A stretch of 64,000 nt of DNA, from NCBI GenBank assembly GCA_964016885.1, contig OZ024746.1, positions 48,360,001-48,424,000 on the forward strand, read 5' to 3'. Position numbers and translations under genes: made by a program. The stretch comes from Eledone cirrhosa. Its lineage: Eukaryota. The notes below the pieces were generated by a model, which was not told the origin of the DNA, did no database searches, and saw nothing but the letters and a program-made list of their open reading frames with translations. Positions 22,300 to 63,963 of the stretch are shown piece by piece (within the stretch, counting starts at the first letter, position 1; each line of letters begins with the position of its first letter).

Positions 22300-23143
<844 letters not shown>

Positions 23144-32100: not shown

Positions 32101-35100
32101 GAAAACTGAGGAAGAACGAGTCAAGTCCCAAATTTCCATGAATATATGTTCGGTGAAATCGTGAACGAGAGAGAAGAAAGACCATCAAACCTGGCTGGAA
32201 TGTGAGCAAGGAAGGAATTCCGTACAGGTCTAACGGGAGGAAGATGGAATCCAGTCTGTGAATTCGGTGAACATAAGTTCTGTGAAATCGTAGACGAGAG
32301 AGAGAAAAAAGGCGAACCAGACTGACCAAGCGTTCGAAAGAAAAGAATTACGCACAGGTCAAACGGGAAGAAGGAGGAGAAGGAGAGGTAGTAACAGAGA
32401 GTGAGTGAGTGAAGGGTGAGGAAGAGGCTAACAGAGAGATTGACTGTTAGAGAGGGTAAAGATACAGAGAAAGAGGAAACAGTAAGAACGAAATAGACGG
32501 GTCACAGACGGGAAAAATATCTGTAAATATGAGAATAAAGGTGCTGCGTGGTTGCAAATGGGTTACATATGAATAAAGTGGTCCTCATCAGTGATCTTCC
32601 AACCATCACAGGTATTTCTTCGCTTGAAAGACCATATACCTCCGGTTGGTGCGAGCAACGGCTAAAAAAAGTCGTTGGGACACGTAAATAAAGGGGACAG
32701 CCAGAGTGTAAACAAACCAAAATGGTGAAGCAACGAAAAGTGAGGAAGAACGAGTCAAGTCCCAAATATCCATGAATAAAAGTTCGGTGAAATCGTGAAC
32801 GAGAGAGAATAAAGACCATCAAACTTGGTTGGAATGTGAGCAAGGAAGGAATTCCGTATAGGTCTAACGGGAGGAAGAAGGAATCTAGTCTGTGAATTGG
32901 GTGAACATAAGTTCTGTGAAATCGTAGACGAGAGAGAGAAAAAAAAGGCGAACCAGCCGGACCAAGCGTGCGAAAGAAAAGAATTACGCACAGGTCAAAC
33001 GGGAAGAAGGAGGATGAGGAGAGGTAGTAACAGAGAGTGAGTGAGTGAAGGGTGAGGAAGAGGCTAACAGAGAGATCGACTGTTAGAGAGGGTAAAGATA
33101 CAGAGAAAGAGGAAGCAGTAAGAACGAAATAGACGGGTCACAGCGGGTGAAAATATAAGTGTAAATATGAGAATAAACGTGCTGCGTGCTTGCAAATGGG
33201 TTACATATGAATAAAGTGGTCCTCATCAGTGATCTTCCAACCATCACAGGTATTTCTTCGCTTTAAAGACCATATACCTCCGGTTGGTGCGAGCAACGGC
33301 TAAAAAAGGTCGTTGGGACACGTAAATAAAGGGGACAGCCAGAGTGTAAACAAACCAAAATGGTGAAGCAACGAAAAGTGAGGAGAACGAATCAAGTCCC
33401 AAATTTCCATGAATATAAGTTCGGTGAAATCGTGAACGAGAGAGAATAAAGACCATCAAACCTGGTTGGAATATGATCAAGAAATGAATTCCGTACAGGT
33501 CTAACGGGAGGAAGAAGGAATCTAGTCTGTGAATTCAGTGAACATAAGTACTGTGAAATGGTAGACGAGAGAGAAAAAAAAGGCGAACCAGCCTGACCAA
33601 GCGTGCGAAAGAAAAGAATTACGCACAGGTCAAACGGGAAGAAGGAGGATGAGGAGAGGTAGTAACAGAGAGTGAGTGACTGATGGGTGAGGAAGAGGCT
33701 AACAGAGAGATTGACTGTTAGAGAGGGTAAAGATACAGAGAAAGAGGAAACAGTAAGTACGAAATAGACAGGTCACAGCGGTGGAAAAGATATGTGTTAA
33801 TATGAGAATAAACGTGCTGCGTGGTTGCAAATAGGTTACATATGAATAGAGTGGTCCTCATCAGTGATCTTCCAACCCCCAAAGGTATTTATTCGCTTTA
33901 AAGACCATATACCTCCGGTTGGTGCGAGCAACGGCTAAAAAAATTCGTTGGGACACGTAAATAAAGGGGACAGCGAGAGTGTAAAGAAACAACGATGGTG
34001 ACGCAATGAAAAGTGAGGAGAACGAGTCAAGTCCCAAATTACCTTGAATATAAGTTCGGTGAAATCGTGAACGAGAGAGAATAAAGACCATCAAACCTGG
34101 TTGGAATGTGAGCAAGGAAGGAATTCCGTATAGGTCTAACGGGAGGAAGAAGGAATCTAGTCTGTGAATTCGGTGCACATAAGTACTGTGAAATCGTAAA
34201 CGAGAGAGAGAAAAAATGCGAACCAGACTGACCAAGCGTGCGAAAGAAAAGAATTACGCACAGGTCAAACGAGAAGAAGGAGGAGGAGGAGATGTAGTAA
34301 CAGAGAGTGAGTGAATGAAGGGTGAGGAAGAGGCTAACAAAGAGAGTGACTGTTAGAGAGGGTAAAGATACAGAGAAAGAGGAAGCAGTAAGAACGAAAT
34401 AGACGGGTCATTGCGGGAGAAAAATATGTGTAAATATGAGAATAAAGGTGATGCATGGTTGCAATGGGTTACATATGAATAAAATGGTCCTCATCAGTGA
34501 TCTTCCAACCACCACAGGTATTTTTTCGCTTTATAGACCATATACCTCCGGTTGGTGCGAGCAACGGCTAAATAAAATCGTTGGGACATGTAAATAAAGG
34601 GGACAGCGAGAGTGTAAACACAACAAAGATGGAGAAGCAACGAAATGTGAGGAAGAACGAGCCAAGTCCCAAATTTCCATGAATATATGTTCGGTGAAAT
34701 CCTGAAACAGAGAGAATAAAGACCATCAAACCTGGTTGAAATGTGAGCAAGGAAGGAATTCCGTACAGGTCTAACGGGAGGAAGAAGGAATCTAGTCTGT
34801 GAATTCGGGGAACATACGTTCTGTGAAATAGTAGACGAGAGAGAGAAAAAAGGCGAACCAGCCTGACCAAGCGTGCGAAAGAAAAGAATTACGCACAGGT
34901 CAAACGGGAGGAAGGAGGAGAAGGAGAGGTAGTAACAGAGAGTGAGAGAGTGAAGGGTGAGGAAGAGGCTAACAGAGAGAGTGACTGTTAGAGAGGGTAA
35001 AGATACAGAGAAAGAGGAAGAAGTAAGAACGAAATAGACGGGTCACAGAGGGGAAAAAATATGTGTAAATATGAGAATAAAGGTGCTGCGTGGTTGCATA

Positions 35101-38100
35101 TGGGTTACATATGAATAAAGTGGTCCTCATCAGTGATCTTCCAACCATCACAGGTATTTCTTCGCTTTAAAGTCCATATACCTCCGGTTGGTAGCGAGCA
35201 ACGGCTAAAAAAAGTCGTTGGTACACGTAAATAAAGGGGACAGCAAGAATGTAAACAAACAAAAATGGTGAAGCAACGAAAAGTGAGAGAGAACGAGTCA
35301 AGTCCCAAATTTCCATGAATATAAGCTCGGTGAAATCATGAACGAGAGAGAATAAAGACCATCAAACCTGGTTGGAATGTGAGCAAGGAAGGAATTCCGT
35401 ACAGGTCTAACGGGAGGAAGAAGGAATCTAGTCTGTGAATTGGGTGAACATAAGCACTGTGAAATCGTAGACGAGAGAGAGAAAAAAGTCGAACCAGCCT
35501 GACCAAGTGTGCGAAAGAAAAGAATTACGCACAGGTCAAACGGGAAGAAGGAGGATGAGGAGAGGTAGTAACAGAGAGTGAGTGAGTGAAGGGTGAGGAA
35601 GGGGCTAACAAAGAGAGTGACTGTTAGAGAGGGTAAAGATACAGAGAAAGAAGAAGCAGTAAGAACGAAATAGAAGTGTCACAGAGGGAAAAAATATGAA
35701 TAAATATGAGAATAAACGTGCTGCGTGGTTGCACATGGGTTACATATGAATAAAGTGGTCCTCATCAGTGATCTTGCAACCACCACAGGTATTTCTTCGC
35801 TTTAAAGACCATATACCACCGGTTGGTGCGAGAAACGGCTAAAAAAAGTCGTTGGGACACGTAAATAAAGGGGACAGCGAGAGTGTATACAAACAAAGAT
35901 GGTGAAGCAACGAAAAGTGAGGAAGAACGAGTCAAGTTCCAATTTCCATGAATATAAGTTCGGTGAAAACGTGAATGAGAGAGAATAAAAACCATCAAAA
36001 CTGGTTGAAATGTAAGGAAGGAATTCTGTACAGGTCTAACGGGAGGAAGAAGGAATCTAGTCTGTGAATTCGGTGAACATAAGTACTGTGAAATGGTAGA
36101 CGAGAGAGAGAAAAAAGGCAAACCAGCCTGACCAAGCGTCCGAAATGAAAGAATTACGCACATGTCAAACGGGAAGAAGTAGGAGGAGGATAGGTTGTAA
36201 CAGAGAGTGAGTGAGTGAAGGGCGAGGAAGAGGCTAACAAAGAGAGTGACTGTTAGAGAGGGTAAAGATACAGAGAAAGAAGAAGCAGTAAGAACGAAAT
36301 AGACGGGTCACAGAGAGGAAAAATATGTGTAAATATGAGAATAAAGGTGCTGCGTGGTTGCAAATGGGTTACATATGAATAAAGTGGTTCTCATCAGTGA
36401 TCTTCCAACCATCAGAGGTATTTCTTCGCTTGAAAGACCATATACCTCCGGTTGGTGCGAGCAACTGCTAAAAAAAGTCGTTGGGACACGTAAATAAAGG
36501 GGACAGCCAGAGTGTAAACAAACAAAGATGGTGAAGCAACGAAAAGTGAGGAAGAACGAGTCAAGTCCCAAATTTCCATTAATATAAGTTCGGTGACATC
36601 GTGAATGAGAGAGAATAAAGACCATCAAACCTGGTTGGAATGTGAGTAAGGAAGGAATTCCGTACAGGTCTAACGGGAGGAAGAAGGAATCTAGTCTGTG
36701 AATTCGGTGAACATACGTTCTGTGAAATCGTAGACGAGAGAGAGAGAAAAAAGGCGAACCAGCCTGACCATGCGTGCGAAAGGAAAGAGATACGCACATG
36801 TCAAACGGGAAGAAGGAGGAGGAGGAGAGGTAGTAACAGAGAGTGAGTGAATGAAGGGTGAGGAATAGGCTAACAGAGATAGAGTGACTGTTAGAGTTAG
36901 AGAGGGTAAAGATACAGAGAAAGAGGAAGCAGTAAGAACGAAATAGACGGGTCATAGCGGGGGAAAAAATATGTGTAAATATGAGAATAAAGGTGATGCA
37001 TGGTTGCAAATGGGTTACATATGAATAAAATGGTCCTCATCAGTGATCTTCCAACCATCACAGGTATTTCTTCGCTTTAGAGACCATCTACCTCCGGTTG
37101 GTGCGTTCAACGGCTAAAAAAAATTCGTTGTGACATGTAAATAAAGGGGACAGCGAGAGTGTAAACACAACAAAGCTGGTGAAGCAACTAAAAGTGAGGA
37201 AGAACGAGTCAAGTCTCAAATTTCCATGTATATATGTTCGGTGAAATCGTGAAACAGAGAAAATAAAGACCATCAAACCTGGTTGGAATGTGAGCAAGGA
37301 AGGAATTCCGTACAGGTCTAACGGGAGGAAGAAGGAATCTAGTCTGTGAATTCGGTGAACATACGTTCTGTGAAATAGTAGACGAGAGAGAGATAAAAGG
37401 CGAACCAGCCTGACCAAGCGTGCGAAAGAAAAGAATTACGCACAGGTCAAACGGGAAGAAGGAGGAGGAGGAGAGGTAGTAACAGAGATTGAGTGAGTGA
37501 AGGGTGAGGAAGAGGCTAACAGAGAGAGTGGCTGTTAGAGAGGGTAAAGATAAAGAGAAAGAGGAAGAAGTAAGAACGAAATAGACGGGTCACAGAGGGG
37601 AAAAAATATGTGTAAATATGAGAATAAAGGTGCTGCGTGGTTGCAAATGGGTTACATATGAATAATGTAGTCCTCATCAGTAATCTTCCAACCATCACAC
37701 GTATTTCTTCGCTTTAAAGACCATATACCTCCGGCTGGTGCGAGCAACGGCTAAAAAAAGTCGTTGGGACACGTAAATAAAGGGGACAGCGAGAGTGTAA
37801 ACAAACAAAGATGGTGAAGCAACGAAAAGTGAGGAAGAACGTGTCAAATCCAAAATTTCCATGAATATATGTTCGGTGAAATCGTGAAATAGAGAGAATA
37901 AAGACCACCAAACCTGGTTGAAATGTGAGCAAGGAAGGAATTCCGTACAGGTCTAACGGGAGGAAGTAGGAATATCGTCTGTGAATTCGGTGAACATAAG
38001 TTCTGTGAAATCGTAGACGACAGAGAGAAAAAAGGCTAACCAGCCTGACCAAGCGTACGAAAGAAAAGAATTACGCACAGGTAAAACGGGAAGAAGGAGG

Positions 38101-39930
38101 AGGAGGAGAGGTAGTAACAGAGAGTGAGTGAATGAAGGGTGAGTAAGAGGCTAACAGAGAGAGTGACTGTTAGAGAGGGTAAAGATACAGAGGAAGAGGA
38201 AGCAGTAAGAACGAAATAGACGGGTCTCAGCTGGGGAAAAAATATGTGTAAATATGAGAATAAACGTGCTGCGTGGTTACAAATGGGTTACATATGAATA
38301 ATGTGGTCCTCATCAGTGATCTTCCAACCATGAAAGGTATTTCTTCGCTTTAAAGACCATATACCTCCGGTTGGTGCGAGCAACGGCTAAAAAAATCGTT
38401 GGGACACGTAAATAAAGGGGACAGCGAGAGTGTAAACAAACAAAGATGGTGAAGCAACGGAAAGTGAGGAAGAACGAGTCAAGTCCCAAATTTCCATGAA
38501 TATATGTTCGGTGAAATCGTGAACGAGTGAGAATAAAGACCATCAAACCTGGTTGGAATGTGAGCAAGGAAGGAATTCCGTACAGGACTAACGGGAGGAA
38601 AAAGGAATCTACTCTGTGAATTCGGTGAACATAAGTTCTGTGAAATCGTAGACGAGAGAGAAAAAAAACGCGAACCAGCCTGACCAAGCGTGCGAAAGAA
38701 AAGAATTACGCACAGGTCAAACGCGAAGAAGGAGCAGGAGGAGAAGTAGTAACAGAGAGTGAGTGAGTGAAGGGTGAGGAAGTGGCTAACAGAGAGAGTG
38801 ACTGTTAGAGAGGGTAAAGATACAGAGAAAGAGGAAGCAGTAAGAACGAAATAGACGGGTCACAGCTGGGGAAAAATATGTGTAAATATGAGAATAAACG
38901 TGCGGCGTGGTTACAAATGGGTTACATATGAATAATGTGGTCCTCATCAGTGATATTCCAACCATCACAGGTATTTCTTTGCTTTAAAGACCATATACCT
39001 CCGGTTGGTCGGAGCAACGGCTAAAAAAAGTCGTTGGGACACGTAAATATAGGGGACAGCGAGTGTGTAAACAAACAAAGATGGTGAAGCAACGAAAAGT
39101 GAGGAAGAACGTGTCAAATCCAAAATTTCCATGAATATATGTTCGGTGAAATCGTGAAATAGAGAGAATAAAGACCATCAAACCTGGTTGAAATGTGAGC
39201 AAGGAAGGAATTCCGTACAGGACTAACGGGAGGAAGAAGGAATCTCGTCTGTGAATTCGGTGAACATAAGTTCTGTGAAATCGTAGACGAGAGAGAGAAA
39301 AAAAGGCGAACCAGCCGGACCAAGCGTGCGAAAGAAAAGAATTACGCACAGGTCAAACGGGAAGAAGGAGGATGAGGAGAGGTAGTAACAGAGAGTGAGT
39401 GAGTGAAGGGTGAGGAAGAGGCTAACAGAGAGATTGACTGTTAGAGAGGGTAAAGATACAGAGAAAGAGGAAGCAGTAAGAACGAAATAGACGGGTCACA
39501 GCGGGGGAAAAAATATGTGTAAATATGAGAATAAACGTGCTGCGTGGTTGCAAATGGGTTACATATGAATAAAGTGGTCCTCATCAGTAATCTTCCAACC
39601 ATCACAGGTATTTCTCCGCTTTAAAGACCATATACCACTGGTTGGTGCAAGCAACGGCTAAAAAAAGTCGTTGGGACATTTACATAAAGGGGACAGCGAG
39701 AGTGTAAACAAACAAAGATGGTGAAGCAACGAAAAGTGAGGAAGAACGAGTCAAGTCCCAAATTTCCATGCATATAAGTTCGGTGAAATCGTGAACGAGA
39801 GAGAATAAAGACCATCAAACCTGGTTGGAATGTGAGCAAGGAAGGAATTCCGCACAGGTCTAACGGGAGGAAGTCTGTGAATTCGGTGAACATAAGTTCT
39901 GAGAAATCGTAAACGAGAGAGAGAAAAAAG
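23144..39930 (+). repeat. ~635-bp satellite, about 26.5 tandem units, purine-rich on the + strand
   Basis: The landmark ggtcctcatcagtgatc and close variants recur 26 times from about 23700 to 39580 at ~635-bp spacing. Both ends abut (TA)n-type tracts. Confidence 0.97.
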
Positions 39931-43775: not shown

Positions 43776-44567
43776 AGACGTAAAATAAGAAAATTATAAA
43801 AATTAACTTACTTACTAAAATTTCACTCCAACTAATTAGTTTCTGAAAGGGAATAAACATGGTTTCCGAATGGAACATGGAGAATACCTTTCGTCATCAG
43901 GAAATCAATTCTCAGCTAGGTTCCCAGGCGATGTGTGGACACAGGGAACTTATACAAAAATAATTCAGTGGATGGAAAAAAGCAAGCGAGGACTAAATTC
44001 CAGGACATTGAAAAAATCACTGCCTACTTGGTCGGTGGCAAATTCAAAAGAATCAATCACGTGACATCGAGGTTAATCAGTGAGGAGTGGGGTGTTAATA
44101 AGACAGTAGCCGGACTATTACTATGAACTATAGTAGTAGTTTTGGCAAATTTTTGCTCAACAAAATAATTTGGAGATAATTATAAAGAATTAGTATATCT
44201 ACCAACATATATATACAGATGCATACCTATGCTAGCAAATATATAGGTTTTGCCTTAGTAACTTTGTGGTTCAATGCAAGGGGATGCAGAACAATTATAT
44301 GAAAGACGTAAAATAAGAAAATTATAAAAATTAACTTACTTACTAAAATTTCAGAAACCATGTTTATTCCCTTTCAGAAACTAATTAGTTGGAGTGAAAT
44401 TTTAGTAAGTAAGTTAATTTTTATAATTTTCTTATTTTACGTCTTTCATATAATTGTTCTGCATCCCCTTGCATTGAACCACAAAGTTACTAAGACAAAA
44501 CCTATATATTTGCTAGCATAGGTATGCATCTGTATATATATGTTGGTAGATATACTAATTCTTTATA
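43776..44567. repeat. Direct-plus-inverted repeat element: palindrome 44181-44567 whose centre reuses 43776-43867
   Basis: agacgtaaaataagaaaattataaaaattaacttacttactaaaatttca occurs at 43776 and 44303, with its reverse complement at about 44395-44444. Confidence 0.8.
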
Positions 44568-44574
44568 TATATAT

Positions 44575-45172
44575 AGTATTAAGGATACTATTTATGGTTA
44601 TGTATATACTAAAACCTTTTATAGTTATATATATTTTAAACCCTAAATAGTGAAAGACAGTAATTTATTACTATCTTATTACCAGTAAGATAAATAGCTC
44701 AATGTAATAACATCATTTGTTCTACAGAGCAGTTATATAGAAATTACATGAATCAAAGTTCTGTTTAAAACATTTATTCGCTTACAATTATTTCTTCCAA
44801 ACCGAGGTTTGGAGTCTTCGGAGCAAGTTTTCAATCATTGTTTACATACATGACCTCCTTTCCAACACAAGAGACATACAGAAACATATGTATATATTGA
44901 TGCACAGTGGGGTGACATCTATTATAATATTTTAGCATGGCAATTTACATCTTTGAATGTAAATTGCCATGCTAAAATATTATAATAGATGTCACCCCAC
45001 TGTGCATCAATATATACATATGTTTCTGTATGTCTCTTGTGTTGGAAAGGAGGTCATGTATGTAAACAATCATTGAAAACTTGCTCCGAAGACTCCAAAC
45101 CTCGGTTTGGAAGAAACAATTGTAAGCTCATAAATGGTTTAAACAGTACTTTAATTCTGTAATTTCTATATA
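44575..45172. repeat. Palindromic element (arms ~215 bp, centre about 44953) with an HHR variant in each arm (45083-45127 +, 44780-44824 -)
   Basis: GCU CCGAAGA c UCCAAACC uc GGUUUGGA a GAAA CAAUUG UA AGC. Confidence 0.8.
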
Positions 45173-46069: not shown

Positions 46070-46172
<103 letters not shown>

Positions 46173-46389
46173 TTTACGTATCGAGAAAGAGAGAAAAAAA
46201 GGAGGGATAGGTGATACATATAGTTATTTGCCAAGTAGCGTATGCCAAAGGTGCTCGATACTAGTGCCGGCAGTATTAAATATTCGAAGTGTTAATATTT
46301 AGTGGGCTAGAGAGTTAGCAGAGTGTAAGCACGTGGGAAAGTGAAAAATCGGAGAATAGACCGTTAAAACATGTTTATTTAAAATATCA

Positions 46390-46425
46390 CCTACGTACGT
46401 TTCGCCCAGTTGGGCTTCTCAAGGG
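46390..46425 (-). ncRNA. Minimal hammerhead variant (CUUGAGAA core)
   Basis: CC CUUGAGAA GCCC aacu GGGC GAAA CGUACG UA GG, with a palindromic stem III. Confidence 0.55.
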
Positions 46426-46677
46426 CATAAACAATCACAAGTGTTCCTTATATAGTTCAGAAAGAGTTTTGGGGGTTAAATCCACATCAAGATTCATTGC
46501 TCGCAAAAATATCTTGTTTTGATTTTGCAGCAGGTCAAGGGAGGTAACTTTGGCCGGTGTTAGGGCAGTCTTTCCCGGATAATTTTTGGTATGCAGGTAT
46601 AGTTTTCTGGGTGTTATTTTGCTGCGCCTGCCCGCCGGGGTGTTAAGACTTGTTGCAGGGAGATCCAGTGTGCTATT

Positions 46678-47646
46678 TCACTCTTCATTCTTAACCCATC
46701 TAAAGAAGGATATTTTTAAGCGATGTGTACAACTTATCGCTGTTTCAGCTCTGCTGTTGATGAGCTCGTGGGGTGCAGTTATGATGTGGTAGAGCTCCAT
46801 GAGGCAAAGATCGCATTTCCTCTTGAAGTTGTACGGTGCAGCCCTGTCGAGAATCTCCCAGTGCGTGGAGAAGCTAATGTTTAAGTCCTTTAGTGATGTG
46901 ATGTAGTCCGCGAGCGAGGTGGAGTGCCTTAGTTTTCTATTTGTGAAAGAGTGGAGATGTGTTCGAAACCTAATTTTGAACGGGCCGGAGGTGGCCCCTA
47001 TATAATATTTAACGCTATTGTGGCTAGTAATAGTGCATCTATATATAACCCTATCGGTCAAGCAGTATCCTCTAAGGGGGCACCGTCCTCTGTCGCGGCA
47101 GTTGCAATTTCTGTCGCTGTTCCGTCTATTTCCCACGATAAGGCTATCATTGTTGCTGCCTACGTTGCTAGCTGCGCTACCGCAGCTGTCGTTAGCACAA
47201 TTACAACCCACAGCACGCGGGATGGTGCGATTGTTATTCCGCACGCCATGTTTTGCATGCTCTCCAGTCACTTCGCGGTCATTCTGGTTGCGTCTGCGGA
47301 TGCCGTTGCCAACACTATTGGATGCTGTCAGGGAGTTGTTAAGGCCGATACAGTTATTGTCAGGTGTAGGTGCGTCTGCGTCGAGGTGCTGTGTCTTGGT
47401 GATCTTACTGTGGTTCGTTGTTCCTATGATGTCTGTTAGGTTAGGAGTAGTAGAGAAGGATATTTTTATATTGTTCCTATTAAGAATTTTTCTATACCTA
47501 TGGTTGGGTGGGAAGTTCTTCTCTAAGGCTTCGAAGAATATCCGGGGTATGTTGGAGGCCACACTTCGAGAGTAGGGGGGGGTGGAGCCATAGGACGTTA
47601 CGGTGGCGATTACGTGTCCTTGTACTTTTGCTACGGGTGGTTCCAT
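46678..47646 (-). CDS. PLE C-terminal region with Cys-rich GIY-YIG endonuclease
   Basis: PPYS..VASNI...KNFP..H...LNRNNIKISFS...CNCR....CPLRGYCL...VIY...YIGAT...FKIRF..H...CDLCLME...NSR.E...C.H. Probably frameshifted just upstream of PPYS, since LWLHPP lies in the neighbouring frame. Confidence 0.82.
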   Translation of the reverse strand: MEPPVAKVQGHVIATVTSYGSTPPYSRSVASNIPRIFFEALEKNFPPNHRYRKILNRNNIKISFSTTPNLTDIIGTTNHSKITKTQHLDADAPTPDNNCIGLNNSLTASNSVGNGIRRRNQNDREVTGEHAKHGVRNNNRTIPRAVGCNCANDSCGSAASNVGSNNDSLIVGNRRNSDRNCNCRDRGRCPLRGYCLTDRVIYRCTITSHNSVKYYIGATSGPFKIRFRTHLHSFTNRKLRHSTSLADYITSLKDLNISFSTHWEILDRAAPYNFKRKCDLCLMELYHIITAPHELINSRAETAISCTHRLKISFFRWVKNEE

Positions 47647-47794
47647 CTAAGTGATCGCTCTTATGTGTGTTAATGCGCTGTCGCCCGTTCGGTGCCCCTT
47701 TCACTTTATGCTCGGGTGCACTCTTTCTACCACTTCCATGTTTATGTACACGAAGATGTTGGTTGGAAGGCGTTGGTAGTAGGCCGTCGCCTAT

Positions 47795-48264
47795 AAGTAT
47801 GTATACGTACATATGTATGTACGTATACATACTTATATTTAAGTAACAGCCGTACTAAGAGTGAGAAATGAAATTTCGTTTCATTTTTTCCATTTATCGT
47901 TTTCGGTACCCTGGCCGATTAACTCACTCGATATGCAAATTAGGCTGCTCAGTCGTTAATATGCATAAGGAAAGTATATACTTTCAGACGTTCAATCAAC
48001 TGGCAGGAAGATATACGTTGCTGACGATAGCTAATAAGCTTGAAACTAGTACAGCGTTCCTTTGTCAGTGTTGAACAAATGAGCAACGATGGTTGCTAGA
48101 CACTGTACGGCTTAATTCGGGATGTTTGTTTACAAACACACCGGGCATTATAATAAATGTTCGGTGAATCCATACGTACATATATATATATGTGTGCATG
48201 TATGTATATATATATATACATACTACTGTACATCTGTATACATATATGTATGTACGTATACATA

Positions 48265-48265
<1 letters not shown>
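47795..48265 (+). repeat. Inverted, more diverged copy of the HHR satellite unit (HHR at 48015-48057, + strand)
   Basis: Reverse complement of the array unit: ACGUUG CUGACGA U AGCU aaua AGCU U GAAA CUAG UA CAGCGU. Confidence 0.85.
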
Positions 48266-48312
<47 letters not shown>

Positions 48313-48317
<5 letters not shown>

Positions 48318-51300
48318 GGAATAGAATGAAACGAAATTTCATTTCTAACTCTTTGTACGGCACTTACATAAATGTAAGTATGTATGTATACGTACATACA
48401 TATATGTATACAGACGTAAGTAGTATGTATATATATACATACATGCACACATAGATATATGCATGTATCGGTTTACCGAACATTTATTATAATGTAAACA
48501 AACAAACAGCCCGAATTACGCCGTACAGTGTTTAGGCAACCACGACACCTTTTTGTTCAACACTGACAAAAGAACAATGTACTAGTTTCAAGCTTATTAG
48601 CTATCGTCAGCATCGTATAATTCCTACCAGATGGTTGAACGTCTGAAAGTATATACTTTCCTTATGCATATTAACGGCTGAGCAGCCTAATTTTCATATC
48701 GAGTGAGTTCAGTCGGCCGGGCACACCGAAAACGATAAATGGAATAGAATGAAACGAAATTTCATTTCTCACTCTTTGTACGGCACTTACTTAAATGTAT
48801 GTATGTATGTATACGTACATACATATATGTATACAGACATACAGTAGTATGTATATATATACAAACATGCACACATAGATATATGCAGGTATCGGTTTAC
48901 CAAACATTTATTATAATGTTCGGTTTGTTTGTGTGTAAACAAACAAACAGCCCGAACTACGCCGTACAGTGTTTAGGCAACCACGTCATCTTTTTGTTCA
49001 ACACTGACAAAAGAACAATGTACTAGTTTCAAGCTTATTAGCTATCGTCAGCATCGTATACCTTCCTGCCAGATGGTTGAACGTCTGAAAGTATATACTT
49101 TCCTTATGCATATTAACGGCTGAGCAGCCTAATTTGCATATCGAGTGAGTTCAGTCGGCCGGGCACACCGAAAACGATAAATGGAATAGAATGAAACGAA
49201 ATTTCATTTCTCACTCTTTGTACGGCACTTAATTAAATGTATGTATGTATGTATACGTACATACATATATGTATACAGACGTACAGTAGTATGTTTTTTA
49301 CATGCACACATATATATATGCACGTATCGGTTTACCAAACATTTATTATAATTTTTGGTTTGTTTGTTTGTAAACAAACAGCCCGAATTACGCCGTACAG
49401 TATTTAGGCAACCACGTCACCTTTTTGTTCAACACTGACACAGGAACCATGTACTAGTTTCAAGCTTATTAGCTATCGTCAGCATCGTATACCTTCCTGC
49501 CAGATGGTTGAACGTCTGAAAGTATATACTTTCCTTATGCATATTAACGGCTGAGCAGCCTAATTTACATATCGAGTGATTTCAGTCGGCCGGGCACACC
49601 GAAAACGATAAATGAAATAGAATGAAACGAAATTTAATTTCTCACTCTTTGTACGGCACTTACTTAAATGTAAGTATGTATGTATGTATACGTACATACA
49701 TATATGTTTATAGACGTACAGTAGTATGTATATATATACATACATATATATATATGCACGTATCGGTTTACCGAACATTTATTACAATGTTCAGTTTGTT
49801 TGTTTGTAAACAAACAAACAGCCCGAATTACGCCGTACAGTGTTTAGGCAACCACGACACCTTTTTGTTCAACACTTACACAGGAACGATGTACTAGTTT
49901 CAAGCTTATTAGCTATCGTCAGCATCGTATACCTTCCTGCCAGATGGTTGAACGTCTGAAAGTATATACTTTCCTTATGCATATTAACGGCTGAGCAGCC
50001 TAATTTGCATATCGAGTGAGTTCAGTCGGCCGGGCACACCGAAAACGATAAATGGAATAGAATGAAACGAAATTTCATTTCTCACTCTTTGTACGGCACT
50101 TAATTAAATGTATGTATGTATGTATACGTACATACATATATGTATACAGACGTACAGTAGTATGTTTTTTACATGCACACATATATATATGCACGTATCG
50201 GTTTACCAAACATTTATTATAATTTTTGGTTTGTTTGTTTGTAAACAAACAGCCCGAATTACGCCGTACAGTATTTAGGCAACCACGTCACCTTTTTGTT
50301 CAACACTGACACAGGAACCATGTACTAGTTTCAAGCTTATTAGCTATCGTCAGCATCGTATACCTTCCTGCCAGATGGTTGAACGTCTGAAAGTATATAC
50401 TTTCCTTATGCATATTAACGGCTGAGCAGCCTAATTTACATATCGAGTGATTTCAGTCGGCCGGGCACACCGAAAACGATAAATGAAATAGAATGAAACG
50501 AAATTTAATTTCTCACTCTTTGTACGGCACTTACTTAAATGTAAGTATGTATGTATGTATACGTACATACATATATGTTTACAGACGTACAGTAGTATGT
50601 ATATATATACATACATATATATATATGCACGTATCGGTTTACCGAACATTTATTACAATGTTCAGTTTGTTTGTTTGTAAACAAACAAACAGCCCGAATT
50701 ACGCCGTAGTGTTTAGGCAACCACGACACCTTTTTGTTCAACACTGACACAGGAACGATGTACTAGTTTCAAGCTTATTAGCTATCGTCAGCATCGTATA
50801 CCTTCCTGCCAGATGGTTGAACGTCTGAAAGTATATACTTTCCTTATGCATATTAACGGCTGAGCAGCCCAATTTGCATATCGAGTGAGTTCAGTCGGCC
50901 GGGCACACCGAAAACGATAAATCGAATAGAATGAAACGAAATTTCATTTCTCACTCTTTGTACGGCCCTTACTTAAATTAAGTATGTATGTATACGTACA
51001 TACATATATGTATACAGACATACAGTAGTATGTATATATATACATACATGCACACATAGATATATGCAGGTATCGGTTTACCAAACATTTATTATAATGT
51101 TCGGCTTGTTTGTTTGTAAACAAACAAACAGCCCGAATTACGCCGTACAGTGTTTAGGCAACCACGTCATCTTTTTGTTCAACAGTGACAAAAGAACAAT
51201 GAACTAGTTTCAAGCTTATTAGCTATCGTCAGCATCGTATACCTTCCTGCCAGATGGTTGAACGTCTGAAAGTATATACTTTCCTTATGCATATTAACGG

Positions 51301-54300
51301 CTGAGCAGCCTAATTTGCATATCAAGTGAGTTCAGTCGGCCGCGCACACCGAAAACGATAAATGGAATAGAATGAAACGAAATTTCATTTCTCATTCATT
51401 GTACGGCACTTAATTAAATGTATGTATGTATACGTACATACATATATGTATACAGACGTACAGTAGTATGTTTTTTACATGCACACATATATATATATGC
51501 ACGTATCGGTTTACCGAACATTTATTATAATGTTCGGTTTGTTTGTTTGTAAACAAACAAACAGCCCGAATTACGCCGTACAATGTTTAGGTAACAACGT
51601 CACCTTTTTGTTTAACACTGACACAGGAACGATGTACTAGTTTCAAGCTTATTAGCTATCGTCAGCATCGTATACCTTCCTGCCAGATGGTTGAACGTCT
51701 TAAAGTATATACTTTCCTTATGCATATTAACGGCTGAGCAGCCTAATACATATATGTATACAGACGTACAATAGTATGTATATATATACATACATGCACA
51801 CATATATATATATATGCACGTATCGGTTTACCAAACATTTATTATAATTTTCGGTTTGTTTGTTTGTAAACAAACAGCCCGAATTACGCCGTACAGTATT
51901 TAGGCAACCACGTCACCTTTTTGTTCAACACTGACACAGGAACCATGTACTAGTTTCAAGCTTATTAGCTATCGTCAGCATCGTATACCTTCCTGCCAGA
52001 TGGTTGAACGTCTGAAAGTATATACTTTCCTTATGCATATTAACGGCTGAGCAGCCTAATTTACATATCGAGTGATTTCAGTCGGCCGGGCACACCGAAA
52101 ACGATAAATGAAATAGAATGAAACGAAATTTAATTTCTCACTCTTTGTACGGCACTTACTTAAATGTAAGTATGTATGTATGTATACGTACATACATATA
52201 TGTTTACAGACGTAAATATATATACATACATATATATATGCACGTATCGGTTTACCGAACATTTATTACAATGTTCAGTTTGTTTGTTTGTAAACACACA
52301 AACAGCCCGAATTACGCCGTACAGTGTTTAGGCAACCACGACACCTTTTTGTTCAACACTGACACTGGAACGATGTACTAGTTTCAAGCTTATTAGCTAT
52401 CGTCAGCATCGTATACCTTCCTGCCAGATGGTTGAACGTCTGAAAGTATATACTTTCCTTATGCATATTAACGGCTGAGCAGCCTAATTTGCATATCGAG
52501 TGAGTTCAGTCGGCCGGGCACACCGAAAACGATAAATGGAATAGAATGAAACGAAATTTCATTTCTCACTCATTTTTACGGCACTTAATTAAATGTATCT
52601 ATGTATGTATACGTACATACATATATGTATACAGACGTACAGTAGTATGTTTTTTACAGGCACACATATATATATGCACGTATCGGTTTACCGAACATTT
52701 ATTATAATGTTCGGTTTGTTTGTTTGTAAACAAACAGCCCGAATTACGCCGTACAGTATTTAGGCAACCACGTCACCTTTTTGTTCAACACTGACACAGG
52801 AACCATGTACTAGTTTCAAGCTTATTAGCTATCGTCAGCATCGTATACCTTCCTGCCAGATGGTTGAACGTCTAAAAGTATATACTTTCCTTATGCATAT
52901 TAACGGCTGAGCAGCCTAATTTACATATCGAGTGATTTCAGTCGGCCGGGCACACCGAAAACGATAAATGAAATAGAATGAAACGAAATTTAATTTCTCA
53001 CTCTTTGTACGGCACTTACTTAAATGTAAGTATGTATGTATGTATACGTACATACATATATGTTTACAGACGTACAGTAGTATGTATATATATACATATA
53101 TGCACAAATAGATATATGCAGGTATCGGTTTACCAAACATTTATTATAATGTTCGGTTTGTTTGTTTGTAAACAAACAAACAGCCCGAATTACGCCGTAC
53201 AGTGTTTAGGCAACCACGTCATCTTTTTGTTCAACAGTGACAAAAGAACAATGAACTAGTTTCAAGCTTATTAGCTATCGTCAGCATCGTATACCTTCCT
53301 GCCAGATGGTTGAACGTCTGAAAGTATATACTTTCCTTATGCATATTAACGGCTGAGCAGCCTAATTTGCATATCAAGTGAGTTCAGTCGGCCGCGCACA
53401 CCGAAAACGATAAATGGAATAGAATGAAACGAAATTTCATTTCTCACTCATTGTACGGCACTTAATTAAATGTATGTATGTATACGTACATACATATATG
53501 TATACAGACGTACAGTAGTATGTTTTTTACATGCACACATATATATATGCACGTATCGGTTTACCGAACATCTATTATAATGTTCGGTTTGTTTGTTTGT
53601 AAACAAACAAACAGCCCGAATTACGCCGTACAATGTTTAGGTAACAACGTCACCTTTTTGTTTAACACTGACACAGGAACGATGTACTAGTTTCAAGCTT
53701 ATTAGCTATCGTCAGCATCGTATACCTTCCTGCCAGATGGTTGAACGTCTGAAAGAATATTCTTTCCTTATGCATATTAACGGCTGAGCAGCCTAATACA
53801 TATATGTATACAGACGTACAGTAGTATGTATATATATACATACATGCACACATATATATATATATGCACGTATCGGTTTACCAAACATTTTTCATAATTT
53901 TCGGTTTGTTTGTTTGTAAACAAACAGCCCGAATTACGCCGTACAGTATTTAGGCAACCACGTCACCTTTTTGTTCAACACTGACACAGGAACCATGTAC
54001 TAGTTTCAAGCTTATTAGCTATCGCCAGCATCGTATACCTTCCTGCCAGATGGTTGAACGTCTGAAAGTATATACTTTCCTTATGCATATTAACGGCTGA
54101 GCAGCCTAATTTACATATCGAGTGATTTCAGTCGGCCGGGCACACCGAAAACGATAAATGAAATAGAATGAAACGAAATTTAATTTCTCACGCTTTGTAC
54201 AGCACTTACTTAAATGTAAGTATGTATGTATGTATACGTACATACATATATGTTTACAGACGTAAATATATATACATACATATATATATGCACGTATCGG

Positions 54301-57300
54301 TTTACCGAACATTTATTACAATGTTCAGTTTGTTTGTTTGTAAACAAACAAACAGCCCGAATTACGCCGTACAGTGTTTAGGCAACCACGACACCTTTTT
54401 GTTCAACACTGACACAGGAACGATGTACTAGTTTCAAGCTTATTAGCTATCGTCAGCATCGTATACCTTCTGCCAGATGGTTGAACGTCTGAAAGTATAT
54501 ACTTTCCTTATGCATATTAACGGCTGAGCAGCCTAATTTGCATATTGAGTGAGTTCAGTCGGCCGGGCACACCGAAAACGATAAATGGAATAGAATGAAA
54601 CGAAATTTCATTTCTCACTCATTGTACGGCACTTAATTAAATGTAAGTATGTATGTATACGTACATACATATATGTATACAGACGTACAGTAGTATGTAT
54701 ATATATACATACATGCACACATATATATATGCACGTATCGGTTTACAGAACATTTATTATAATGTTCGGTTTGTTTGTTTGTAAACAAACAAACAGCCCG
54801 AATTACGCCGTACAGTGTTTAGGCAACCACGTCATCTTTTTGTTCAACACTGACAAAAGAACAATGTACTAGTTTCAAGCTTATTAGCTATCGTCAGCAT
54901 CGTATACCTTCCTGCCAGATGGTTGAACGTCTGAAAGAATATACTTTCCTTATGCATATTAACGGCTGAGCAGCCTAATTTGCATATCGAGTGAGTTCAG
55001 TCGGCCGGGCACACCGAAAACGATAAATGGAATAGAATGAAACGAAATTTCATTTCTCACTCTTTGTACGGCACTTACTTAAATTAAGTATGTATGTATA
55101 CGTACATACATATATGTATACAGACATACAGTAGTATGTATATATATACATACATGCACACATAGATATATGCAGGTATCGGTTTACCAAACATTTATTA
55201 TAATGTTCGGTTTGTTTATTTGTAAACAAACAAACAGCCCGAATTACGCCGTACAGTGTTTAGGCAACCACGTCATCTTTTTGTTCAACAGTGACAAAAG
55301 AACAATGAACTAGTTTCAAGCTTATTAGCTATCGTCAGCATCGTATACCTTCCTGCCAGATGGTTGAACGTCTGAAAGTATATACTTTCCTTATGCATAT
55401 TAACGGCTGAGCAGCCTAATTTGCATATCAAGTGAGTTCAGTCGGCCGCGCACACCGAAAACGATAAATGGAATAGAATGAAACGAAATTTCATTTCTCA
55501 CTCATTGTACGGCACTTAATTAAATGTATGTATGTATACGTACATACATATATGTATACAGACGTACAGTAGTATGTTTTTTACATGCACACATATATAT
55601 ATGCACGTATCGGTTTACCGAACATTTATTATAATGTTCGGTTTGTTTGTTTGTAAACAAACAAACAGCCCGAATTACGCCGTACAATGTTTAGGTAACA
55701 ACGTCACCTTTTTGTTTAACACTGACACAGGAACGATGTACTAGTTTCAAGCTTATTAGCTATCGTCAGCATCGTATACCTTCCTGCCAGATGGTTGAAC
55801 GTCTTAAAGTATATACTTTCCTTATGCATATTAACGGCTGAGCAGCCTAATACATATATGTGTACAGACGTACAGTAGTATGTATATATATACATACATG
55901 CACATATATATATATATATGCACGTATCGGTTTACCAAACATTTATTATAATTTTCGGTTTGTTTGTTTGTAAACAAACAGCCCGAATTACGCCGTACAG
56001 TATTTAGGCAACCACCTCACCTTTTTGTTCAGCACTGACACAGGAACCATGTACTAGTTTCAAGCTTATTAGCTATCGTCAGCATCGTATACCTTCCTGC
56101 CAGATGGTTGAACGTCTGAAAGTATATACTTTCCTTATGCATATTAACGGTTGAGCAGCCTAATTTGCATATTGAGTGGGTTCAGTCGGCCGGGCACACC
56201 GAAAACGATAAATGGAATAGAATGAAACGAAATTTCATTTCTCACTCATTGTACGGCACTTAATTAAATGTAAGTATGTATGTATACGTACATACATATA
56301 TGTATACAGACGTACAGTAGTATGTATATATATACATACATGCACACATATATATATGCACGTATCGGTTTACAGAACATTTATTATAATGTTCGGTTTG
56401 TTTGTTTGTAAACAAACAAACAGCCCGAATTACGCCGTACAGTGTTTAGGCAACCACGTCATCTTTTTGTTCAACACTGACAAAAGAACAATGTACTAGT
56501 TTCAAGCTTATTAGCTATCGTCAGCATCGTATACCTTCCTGCCAGATGGTTGAACGTCTGAAAGAATATACTTTCCTTATGCATATTAACGGCTGAGCAG
56601 CCTAATTTGCATATCGAGTGAGTTCAGTCGGCCGGGCACACCGAAAACGATAAATGGAATAGAATGAAACGAAATTTCATTTCTCACTCTTTGTACGGCA
56701 CTTACTTAAATTAAGTATGTATGTATACGTACATACATATATGTATACAGACATACAGTAGTATGTATATATATACATACATGCACACATAGATATATGC
56801 AGGTATCGGTTTACCAAACATTTATTATAATGTTCGGTTTGTTTGTTTGTAAACAAACAAACAGCCCGAATTACGCCGTACAGTGTTTAGGCAACCACGT
56901 CATCTTTTTGTTCAACAGTGACAAAAGAACAATGTACTAGTTTCAAGCTTATTAGCTATCGTCAGCATCGTATACCTTCCTGCCAGATGGTTGAACGTCT
57001 GAAAGTATATACTTTCCTTATGCATATTAACGGTTGAGCAGCCTAATTTGCATATCGAGTGAGTTCAGTCGGCCGGGCACACCGAAAACGATAAATGGAA
57101 TAGAATGAAACGAAATTTCATTTCTCACTCATTTTTACGGCACTTAATTAAATGTATCTATGTATGTATACGTACATACATATATGTATACAGACGTACA
57201 GTAGTATGTTTTTTACATGCACACATATATATATGCACGTATCGGTTTACCGAACATTTATTATAATGTTCGGTTTGTTTGTTTGTAAACAAACAAACAG

Positions 57301-58525
57301 CCCGAATTACGCCGTACAATGTTTAGGTAACAACGTCACCTTTTTGTTTAACACTGATACAGGAACGATGAACTAGTTTCAAGCTTATTAGCTATCGTCA
57401 GCATCGTATACCTTCCTGCCAGATGGTTGAACGTCTGAAAGTATATACTTTCCTTATGCATATTAACGGCTGAGCAGCCTAATACATATATGTATACAGA
57501 CGTACAGTAGTATGTATATATATACATACATGCACACATATATATATATATATGCACGTATCGGTTTACCAAACATTTATTATAATTTTCGGTTTGTTTG
57601 TTTGTAAACAAACAGCCCGAATTACGCCGTACAGTATTTAGGTAACCACGTCACCTTTTTGTTCAACACTGACACAGGAACCATGTACTAGTTTCAAGCT
57701 TATTAGCTATCGTCAGCATCGTATACCTTCCTGCCAGATGGTTGAACGTCTGAAAGTATATACTTTCCTTATGCATATTAACGGCTGAGCAGCCTAATTT
57801 ACATATCGAGTGATTTCAGTCGGCCGGGCACACCGAAAACGATAAATGAAATAGAATGAAACGAAATTTAATTTCTCACTCTTTGTACGGCACTTACTTA
57901 AATGTAAGTATGTATGTATGTATACGTACATACATATATGTTTACAGACGTAAATATATATACATACATATATATATGCACGCATCGGTTTACCGAACAT
58001 TTATTACAATGTTCAGTTTGTTTGTTTGTAAACAAACAAACAGCCCGAATTACGCCGTACAGTGTTTAGGCAACCACGACACCTTTTTGTTCAACACTGA
58101 CACAGGAACGATGTACTAGTTTCAAGCTTATTAGCTATCGTCAGCATCGTATACCTTCCTGCCAGATGGTTGAACGTCTGAAAGTATATACTTTCCTTAT
58201 GCATATTAACGGCTGAGCAGCCTAATTTGCATATTGAGTGAGTTCAGTCGGCCGGGCACACCGAAAACGATAAATGGAATAGAATGAAACGAAATTTCAT
58301 TTCTCACTCATTGTACGGCACTTAATTAAATGTAAGTATGTATGTATACGTACATACATATATGTATACAGACGTACAGTAGTATGTATATATATACATA
58401 CATGCACACATATATATATGCACGTATCGGTTTACAGAACATTTATTATAATGTTCGGTTTGTTTGTTTGTAAACAAACAAACAGCCCGAATTACGCCCT
58501 ACAGTGTTTAGGCAACCACGTCACC
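48313..58525 (-). repeat. ~430-445-bp satellite, 24 tandem units, each with a hammerhead ribozyme motif (retrozyme-like array)
   Basis: actagtttcaagcttattagctatcg(t/c)cagcatcgt occurs 24 times from about 48580 to 58114. Four units are ~313-bp deletion variants. Confidence 0.95.
49886..49928 (-). ncRNA. Representative minimal type I hammerhead of the satellite
   Basis: ACGAUG CUGACGA U AGCU aaua AGCU U GAAA C UA G UA CAUCGU: 6-bp stem I, intact core, GUA cleavage triplet. Confidence 0.8.
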
Positions 58526-58795
58526 ACGTATACGATGCTGACGATAGCTAATAACGTTGAAACTAGCACATCGTTCCTGTGTCAGTGTTGAACAAAAAGG
58601 TGACGTTGTTGCCTAAACACTGTACGGTGTAATTCGGGCTGTTTGTATGTTTACAAACAAACAAACCGAACATTATAATAAATGTTCGGTAAACCGATAC
58701 GTGCATATATATATATGTGTGCATGTATGTATATATTTACATACTACTGTACGTCTGTATACATATATGTATGTACGTATACATACATACATACT
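58526..58795 (+). repeat. Inverted partial satellite unit closing the array (degenerate HHR)
   Basis: acgatgctgacgatagctaataacgttgaaactagcacatcg: stem II is broken and the triplet is GCA. Confidence 0.85.
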
Positions 58796-61853: not shown

Positions 61854-61926
61854 GCCGAAATATCTCAGTTGAGAGAGCGTTAGACTGAAGATCTAAAGAC
61901 CCCTGGTTCAAGCCCGGGTTTCGGCA
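61854..61926 (+). tRNA. tRNA-Phe(GAA), diverged, probable pseudogene
   Basis: gccgaaa...ttaga ctGAAga tctaa...tttcggca. D-stem and A-box changes (tatctc, gagaga). Confidence 0.75.
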
Positions 61927-62783: not shown

Positions 62784-62856
62784 GCCGAAATAGCTCAGTT
62801 GGGAGAGCGTTAGACTGAAGATCTAAAGGTCCCTTGTTCAATCCCGGATTTCGGCA
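62784..62856 (+). tRNA. tRNA-Phe(GAA), with two T-stem mismatches
   Basis: gccgaaatagctcagttgggagagcgttagactgaagatctaaaggtcccttgttcaatcccggatttcggca, followed by T runs. Confidence 0.85.
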
Positions 62857-63890: not shown

Positions 63891-63963
63891 GCCGAAATAG
63901 CTCAGTTGGGAGAGCGTAAGACTGAAAATCTAAAGGTCCCTGTTTCAATCCCGGGTTTCGGCA
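63891..63963 (+). tRNA. tRNA-Phe(GAA), diverged (anticodon-stem and T-stem/B-box changes)
   Basis: gccgaaatagctcagttgggagagcgtaagactgaaaatctaaaggtccctgtttcaatcccgggtttcggca. Confidence 0.78.

What the first reader, a model, noticed from the sequence alone, without database searches (positions are those of the whole stretch)
47500..48320. HHR satellite is fused to the truncated 5' end of a PLE, where an inverted pLTR normally sits
Seen: the other three PLE copies have an inverted piece of their own pLTR at the 5' truncation (about 1519, 16531, 18601). This minus-strand PLE instead runs at about 47795 into a small hairpin and an inverted satellite unit, whose HHR differs from the PLE's own (46390). 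Inference: the PLE RT switched template onto satellite RNA/cDNA, which would link the array to its mobilising enzyme. A later chance insertion is the alternative.
Basis: inference. Interest (0 to 1): 0.72.

Follow-up and report, generated by a model that had tools for sequence, protein, structure and literature searches.

The report
Retrozyme copy abutting a truncated Penelope
A small repeat carrying a predicted self-cutting RNA motif sits flush, back to back, against the broken end of a Penelope-type jumping gene, likely because both landed one after the other in the same TA-repeat hotspot, so this junction alone does not show which enzyme spreads the repeat.

Summary
The junction is real in the assembly. 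A young Hydra-type Penelope-like element (PLE, 46170-47792, minus) is 5'-truncated and joined, with no TA spacer, to a 22-nt inverted repeat and a hammerhead unit in opposite orientation. That unit is not part of the neighbouring array (85-87% alike). It is a copy of a dispersed retrozyme subfamily (96-98%) and not part of longer PLE copies. The retrozyme inserts with PLE marks: two fixed 3' ends in (TA)n and back-to-back arms; this scan noted that footprint before on other DNA. Best reading (0.6): two successive insertions in one TA tract with target deletion. Live rival (0.28): one break filled from both sides by two different RNAs. PLE long end plus retrozyme short end fits the pairing rule, ages match, and a second clean PLE-retrozyme chimera exists (L208). 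But two other mixed junctions break that rule, and 0 of 149 retrozyme loci had this PLE as partner. Reads did not test the junction.

The parts
46072..46169 (.). (TC)28(TA)21 tract at the PLE's 3' end
46170..47792 (-). 5'-truncated single-armed PLE (family PLE1, Hydra-type motifs); long 3' end at 46170, short-end site at 46331; about 99% to genomic relatives
46385..46436 (-). PLE's predicted type I hammerhead, U3-A8 core variant
   Evidence: variant described in PMC4209133
46678..47646 (-). Open frame with linker CxCx5C and GIY-YIG-type endonuclease (YIG, CxxC, CxH); frameshifted against relatives near 47575
47792..47813 (-). 22-nt inverted piece of the retrozyme's short-end region; shares one T with the PLE; left half of the hairpin
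47811..48266 (+). Dispersed retrozyme arm, just over one 430-nt unit, ending at the short 3' end (end A)
48014..48058 (+). Predicted type I hammerhead of the retrozyme arm (6-bp stem I, 4-bp stem II, palindromic stem III)
48267..48314 (.). (TA)24 shared by the retrozyme arm and the array's end
48314..58525 (-). Long arm of a separate retrozyme array (about 430-445-nt units, 23 hammerhead motifs), long 3' end (end B) at 48314
58526..58790 (+). The array's own inverted arm, ending at the short end before (CA)n(TA)n

Best explanation
Three PLE-type insertions lie side by side in TA repeats (a truncated Hydra-type PLE, a young dispersed retrozyme copy and a two-armed retrozyme array), and the PLE-retrozyme junction likely formed when the later of the first two inserted beside the earlier one, deleted the TA spacer and joined through a one-base overlap. 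Shown: the anatomy, the family memberships, the fixed 3' ends and the frequency of flush joins. Inferred: target-primed reverse transcription by a PLE enzyme at TA for each insertion, followed by end joining. Two orders fit. (a) PLE later: the retrozyme was an ordinary long+short two-armed copy, and the PLE's 5' end removed the TA run and the 63-nt tail of its left arm, leaving 22 nt. (b) Retrozyme later: its cDNA end folded back at the palindrome and joined into the existing PLE. The order is not resolved.
For: Flush 5' joins are routine: 6 of 41 single-armed PLE1 copies in an unbiased sample of 91 (L208 re-sorted by eye), and many single-armed retrozymes joined to LINE-like, SINE-like or unique DNA. 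The host does not resume in 17 of 21 such cases. The window's shape (foreign DNA, cut inverted piece, forward arm ending at end A) recurs with non-PLE1 DNA in 5 of 90 loci: L293, L296, L327, L338, L361. Arm junctions just past end A are common (8 of 90 by eye). TA tracts are crowded with element ends: 409 of 914 non-anchor TA boundaries fall in recurrent terminus clusters. Same-family insertions pair long with short ends (PLE1: 46 of 47 two-armed copies with visible ends, none long+long), yet of three other mixed junctions with assignable ends only L208 does; L211 is long+long and L382 short+short. None of 149 fetched retrozyme loci (about 140 distinct insertions) has PLE1 at its 5' junction. 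The two arms of one PLE1 insertion differ by 1.4% against 3.5% between loci (n=30), which suggests one source per event.
Against: PLE long end plus retrozyme short end is exactly the pairing expected of one two-armed event. The two parts are equally young: 7 of 1621 against 0 of 338 private changes, p=0.61; this slightly disfavours order (a). Head-to-head joins to another TA-anchored element make up 3 of 6 flush PLE1 junctions (L208, L211, L230), somewhat more than my rough expectation of 1-2. Fold-back caps of the same kind occur inside ordinary two-armed retrozymes (L042, L058, L148). No empty or half-filled allele was seen.
Confidence: 0.6

Rival explanations
1. Mixed two-armed insertion. 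A PLE enzyme pair cut both strands of one TA tract, copied PLE RNA from its long start site on one side and retrozyme RNA from its short start site on the other, and the two cDNA ends were joined with a short fold-back. The retrozyme arm would then replace the usual inverted pLTR.
For: Long+short pairing, no spacer, head-to-head orientation and equal youth. L208 is a second clean case: (TA)23, short end of tandem hammerhead family X, 2-nt overlap, PLE1 long arm. Two short ends never pair in the retrozyme (0 of 90), so the 22-nt piece is not a complete second arm. A PLE protein extends both strands, starts at two internal RNA sites and is predicted to be a dimer (PMC11167929). An unchecked scan note reports a retrozyme piece between two PLE arms (e1-10324047).
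Against: L211 and L382 break the pairing rule. 0 of 149 retrozyme loci have a PLE1 partner. Arms of one insertion share a source. The retrozyme unit shows no similarity to the PLE1 3' region (score 25 against 24.7 for shuffles). A rough count allows one to a few such junctions genome-wide by chance.
Confidence: 0.28
2. A single reverse transcriptase jumped from PLE RNA onto retrozyme RNA and carried on.
For: The 22-nt piece is in PLE sense and begins at the retrozyme's short start site. L202 and L365 show PLE1 flush behind another element in the same sense. Template jumps are proposed for PLEs in PMC3846280.
Against: It explains only 22 nt; the 455-nt unit is antisense and has its own TA-anchored end. 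The overlap is only one base.
Confidence: 0.07
3. Assembly chimera or collapse between two repeats at a palindrome.
For: The junction is unique, includes a palindrome and was not tested in reads.
Against: Both outer ends are canonical and TA-anchored. Similar flush junctions recur across the assembly. The contig is 102 Mb long.
Confidence: 0.05

Closest known systems
Metazoan non-LTR retrozymes (Cervera and de la Pena 2020, PMC7229834, passages read; Li, Clavereau and Pollet 2026, bioRxiv 10.64898/2026.07.22.740005, parts 1-3 of 5 read, supplements not seen)
   Same: Non-coding tandem units of a few hundred bases, one type I hammerhead motif per unit, monomers to multimers, coexisting with PLEs; PLE mobilisation is proposed in both papers.
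   Different: Here copies show PLE insertion marks directly (two fixed 3' ends 63 nt apart, back-to-back arms, TA targets). No homology to the neighbouring PLE's pLTR was found. Cleavage and circular RNA were not tested.
Hydra-clade C-terminal-endonuclease PLEs (Craig et al. 2021, PMC8557442, passages read)
   Same: RWK, DKT, CxCx5C, CxxC and CxH motifs; single ORF with RT then GIY-YIG; hammerhead in the 3' repeat; (TA)n insertion; inverted 5'-truncated arm; tail on one end only.
   Different: Tail of 161 nt rather than 30-40 nt; element about 3.3 kb. No tree was built.
Two-start-site priming by the anole PLE PAc (Frangieh et al. 2024, PMC11167929, parts 1-2 of 4 read)
   Same: Two RT start sites whose spacing is the tail; both strands extended; AT-rich targets.
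   Different: That work uses one RNA species in vitro; insertions with two different RNAs are not described in the parts read.
Penelope insertions in Adineta vaga (Arkhipova et al. 2013, PMC3846280, passages read)
   Same: Palindromes at inverted junctions, microhomology-joined 5' ends, a secondary insertion of one PLE into another.
   Different: They report no cross-mobilisation between the two PLE types there and no retrozyme partner in the passages read.

Membership tests
Non-LTR retrozyme | Type I hammerhead motif in each unit | tested here: met
   Core, GAAA, UH and stems I-II in the fused unit and in 23 array units. Not an Rfam hit; the fold is not the minimum-energy one (z -0.2).
Non-LTR retrozyme | Short non-coding unit in tandem, dispersed at many loci | tested here: met
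   About 430-nt unit, no ORF of 120 aa or more over it; 2632 exact short ends and 3931 exact long ends next to TA.
Non-LTR retrozyme | Self-cleavage and circular RNA | not testable with these tools
   Needs RNA data or an assay.
Non-LTR retrozyme | Derived from a PLE pLTR (Li et al. 2026, shown for part of the Xenopus families) | tested here: inconclusive
   No similarity to the PLE1 3' region; at most weak scores to the other window PLEs; clear similarity only to another tandem hammerhead family (score 91 against 30). Other PLE families in the genome were not screened.
Hydra-clade PLE | RWK and DKT motifs, RT before GIY-YIG in one ORF | tested here: met
   910-aa ORF of relative L101; the window copy lacks this part.
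Hydra-clade PLE | CxCx5C linker; CxxC and CxH around the catalytic E and N | tested here: met
   All three in the window frame; L101 has lost CxH.
Hydra-clade PLE | Placement in the Hydra clade of the RT tree | not tested
   No reference set in hand; Pfam gave no hit for the window fragment.
Single two-armed PLE-type insertion (mixed template) | Head-to-head arms, no spacer, one long and one short end in TA | tested here: met
Single two-armed PLE-type insertion (mixed template) | Mixed junctions enriched over chance and obeying the end-pairing rule | tested here: inconclusive
   1 of 3 other assignable cases obeys; numbers are very small.
Single two-armed PLE-type insertion (mixed template) | Both parts present or absent together among alleles | not testable with these tools
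   No spanning reads were obtained.

The most novel reading that the evidence does not exclude
PLE enzymes can load two different RNAs and fill one double-strand cut from both sides. The window (PLE1 plus this retrozyme) and L208 (PLE1 plus hammerhead family X) would be fossils of retrozyme RNAs caught in the same complex as a Hydra-type PLE RNA: direct genomic evidence that PLEs mobilise retrozymes in trans and that the inverted pLTR is a second, separately templated arm.
Probability: 0.28. Interest if true: 0.72.

Novelty: new member of a known kind. Interest (0 to 1): 0.36.

Why it matters
How animal retrozymes are copied into DNA is still only proposed (PMC7229834; bioRxiv 10.64898/2026.07.22.740005). 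The footprint counted here supports PLE machinery, though the scan has noted it at other loci. If mixed two-armed insertions are real, they would name enzyme-passenger pairs and show that PLE inversions use two templates. The long/short end rule gives a simple genome-wide test. If the junction is sequential, it is an ordinary product of crowding at TA tracts.

Tried and rejected
Satellite unit as part of the PLE: rejected; longer copies continue the ORF. PLE resuming beyond the array: no match to a 1.5-kb upstream stretch of a longer copy in the window plus 30 kb; not diagnostic. Junction as a multi-copy chimera: only the window holds both halves among 40 scored of 2505 candidates; one other partial hit (L094) was a PLE beside plain TA. 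Hairpin as a complete own second arm: rejected; short+short pairs were 0 of 90, and the one script call (L330) proved to be two neighbouring insertions. A pattern meant to count fold-back caps (44 matches, 30 examined) mostly caught a point variant; only L148/L149 were clear caps. A query to enrich PLE-retrozyme neighbours returned mainly PLE ends. A direct genome-wide search for composites with a long gap could not be run, so the census rests on samples. Sequencing runs: no RNA holder listed. Contigs laid on 47400-47795 show only other copies continuing as PLE, so the junction itself is untested. The automatic neighbour table had orientation errors and was used only after checking by eye. Family V junctions (L230 long+long, L418 long+short) were left out of the rule count because the window's own V copy has two long ends. 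Ages of the L208 and L211 partners could not be computed (one search stopped). Literature searches listed no report of a PLE-retrozyme mixed insertion; most hits were seen only as listings, and PMC13282606 (passages) has no mention of ribozymes.

Full report
Observation. The window is C6:48360001-48424000 of a 3.0-Gb genome. A minus-strand PLE runs from a (TC)n(TA)n tract at 46170 to 47792. It is followed directly by a 22-nt inverted repeat with a 2-nt centre (47792-47837), a plus-strand hammerhead unit ending at 48266, (TA)24, and the array. The PLE's hammerhead has a U3-A8 core and the unit's a C3-G8 core; U3-A8 is a known PLE variant (PMC4209133, passages). Both are motif predictions: Rfam reports none, and the folds are no more stable than shuffles.

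The PLE. It belongs to a young family, PLE1: 96-99% relatives, 3025 first-look candidates and 690 exact long ends. Longer copies continue the ORF past the window's break, so the hammerhead unit is not part of the element. A relative encodes 910 aa with RWK, DKT, YRDD, CxCx5C and CxxC; the window fragment also has CxH. These are the features listed for the Hydra clade (PMC8557442, passages); no tree was built. Copies end at one of two points 161 nt apart. Of 91 long-end copies taken in genome order, 46 are two-armed long+short, none long+long, 1 has another outer end, 3 run out of range and 41 are single-armed. An earlier, selected sample held one short+short case.

The hammerhead unit. It is 85-87% identical to array units and 96-98% to dispersed copies. 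The family has two 3' ends 63 nt apart, both in TA (2632 and 3931 exact matches), variable 5' truncation and back-to-back arms. Two-armed copies paired short with long in 15 of 15 in the first sample. About 52 of 90 short-anchored loci had a long partner (46 by script, the rest by eye, one cut copy removed), and none had a second short end. By script 17 of 30 long-anchored loci had a short partner. The samples overlap by several loci. The array is itself a long+short insertion of another subfamily. So the window holds three insertions, and the array is not tied to this PLE. The lead to test end pairing came from earlier scan notes. The footprint matches the two RT start sites and both-strand extension shown for an anole PLE (PMC11167929), so PLE-type mobilisation of the family is a well-founded inference. 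Which PLE does it is open: the unit has no similarity to the PLE1 3' region.

What the junction can and cannot show. The main unit is antisense to the PLE and has its own TA-anchored end, so a simple switch onto sense RNA explains only the 22-nt piece. The PLE does not resume in the window or 30 kb beyond. But among 29 retrozyme loci with a flush or nearly flush left end, 21 had a recognisable repeat touching the junction, and 17 of these showed no continuation within 400-500 nt of the far side; the other 4 were ambiguous. Target deletion therefore appears routine. The window's shape recurs with other foreign DNA in 5 of 90 loci. Arm junctions fall just past the short end in 8 of 90 (by eye), so the 22-nt piece can be the stump of a normal long-ended arm. 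Equally, fold-back caps occur inside ordinary two-armed copies (L042, L058, L148), and then the piece would be a joining scar.

Mixed junctions elsewhere. Of 41 single-armed PLE1 copies, 6 are flush. Three face another TA-anchored element head to head: L208 with tandem hammerhead family X, L211 with PLE family a, L230 with family V. One follows PLE family c in the same sense (L202), and two abut LINE-like or unique DNA. A short-end sample of 30 loci added L382 (family W, head to head) and L365 (same sense). End pairing is long+short in the window and L208, long+long in L211 and short+short in L382; the V cases were left out because its rule is unclear. This is near chance, unlike same-family arms, but rests on four cases. 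None of 149 retrozyme loci has PLE1 at its 5' junction. TA tracts in the fetched loci are crowded: 409 of 914 non-anchor boundaries belong to recurrent termini, some of them SINE-like tails or simple repeats. My rough expectation under sequential insertion is 1-2 head-to-head cases among 6 flush joins; 3 were seen. Within PLE1 insertions the arms differ by 1.4%, against 3.5% between loci (n=30); this suggests one source per event but could reflect one active master at a time. The window's two parts are equally young (7 of 1621 and 0 of 338 private changes, p=0.61).

Verdict. Sequential insertion with deletion is the most economical reading (0.6). A single insertion with two different RNA templates is not excluded (0.28) and would be of real interest; L208 is a cleaner example than the window. 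A literal single jump (0.07) and an artefact (0.05) remain, since reads did not test the junction (one search covers only the PLE side). Both elements are new members of known kinds. Five literature searches listed no mixed PLE-retrozyme insertion; the library lacks most subscription journals, and the preprint's supplements were not seen.

Noticed in passing
L208 (G000:C1:200615390-200619830): Clean chimera: (TA)23, short end of tandem hammerhead family X, about 830 nt, 2-nt overlap, then a 2.3-kb PLE1 arm to its long end. A better candidate for a mixed two-armed insertion than the window.
   Followed up: partly
window 23160-39930: Second long tandem array of about 635-nt units starting at (TA)n, with a CUGAUGA box on the minus strand; missed by the tandem finder (period over 500). 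Hammerhead topology not resolved.
   Followed up: no
window 43776-44567 and 44570-45165: Two further two-armed non-coding elements (families X and W), each long+short. X has a hammerhead-like core with almost no stem II; W has a CCGAAGA core variant (read by eye).
   Followed up: partly
window 22511-22914: Abundant inverted-repeat element (family V) between TA runs; this copy has the long end on both sides although both ends are equally common in the loci (33 and 32).
   Followed up: partly
L103, L213, L226, L243: Partial tandems of PLE1 in which the long end plus a few TA joins the same element start each time, consistent with jumps or read-through at a fixed 5' end.
   Followed up: no
L176, L252: A 466-nt tandem hammerhead family alignable to this retrozyme over most of the unit (score 91 against 30 for shuffles): a diverged sister family.
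   Followed up: partly
L290, L325: The same roughly 600-nt repeat inserted twice into the retrozyme's short-end hairpin, with an apparent target duplication.
   Followed up: no
window 18620-19190: Asparagine-rich (AAC/AAT) stretch in frame upstream of the RT of PLE family c, recalling the N-rich inserts described in PMC3846280.
   Followed up: no
window 61854-61926, 62784-62856, 63891-63963: Three similar tRNA genes about 1 kb apart.
   Followed up: no
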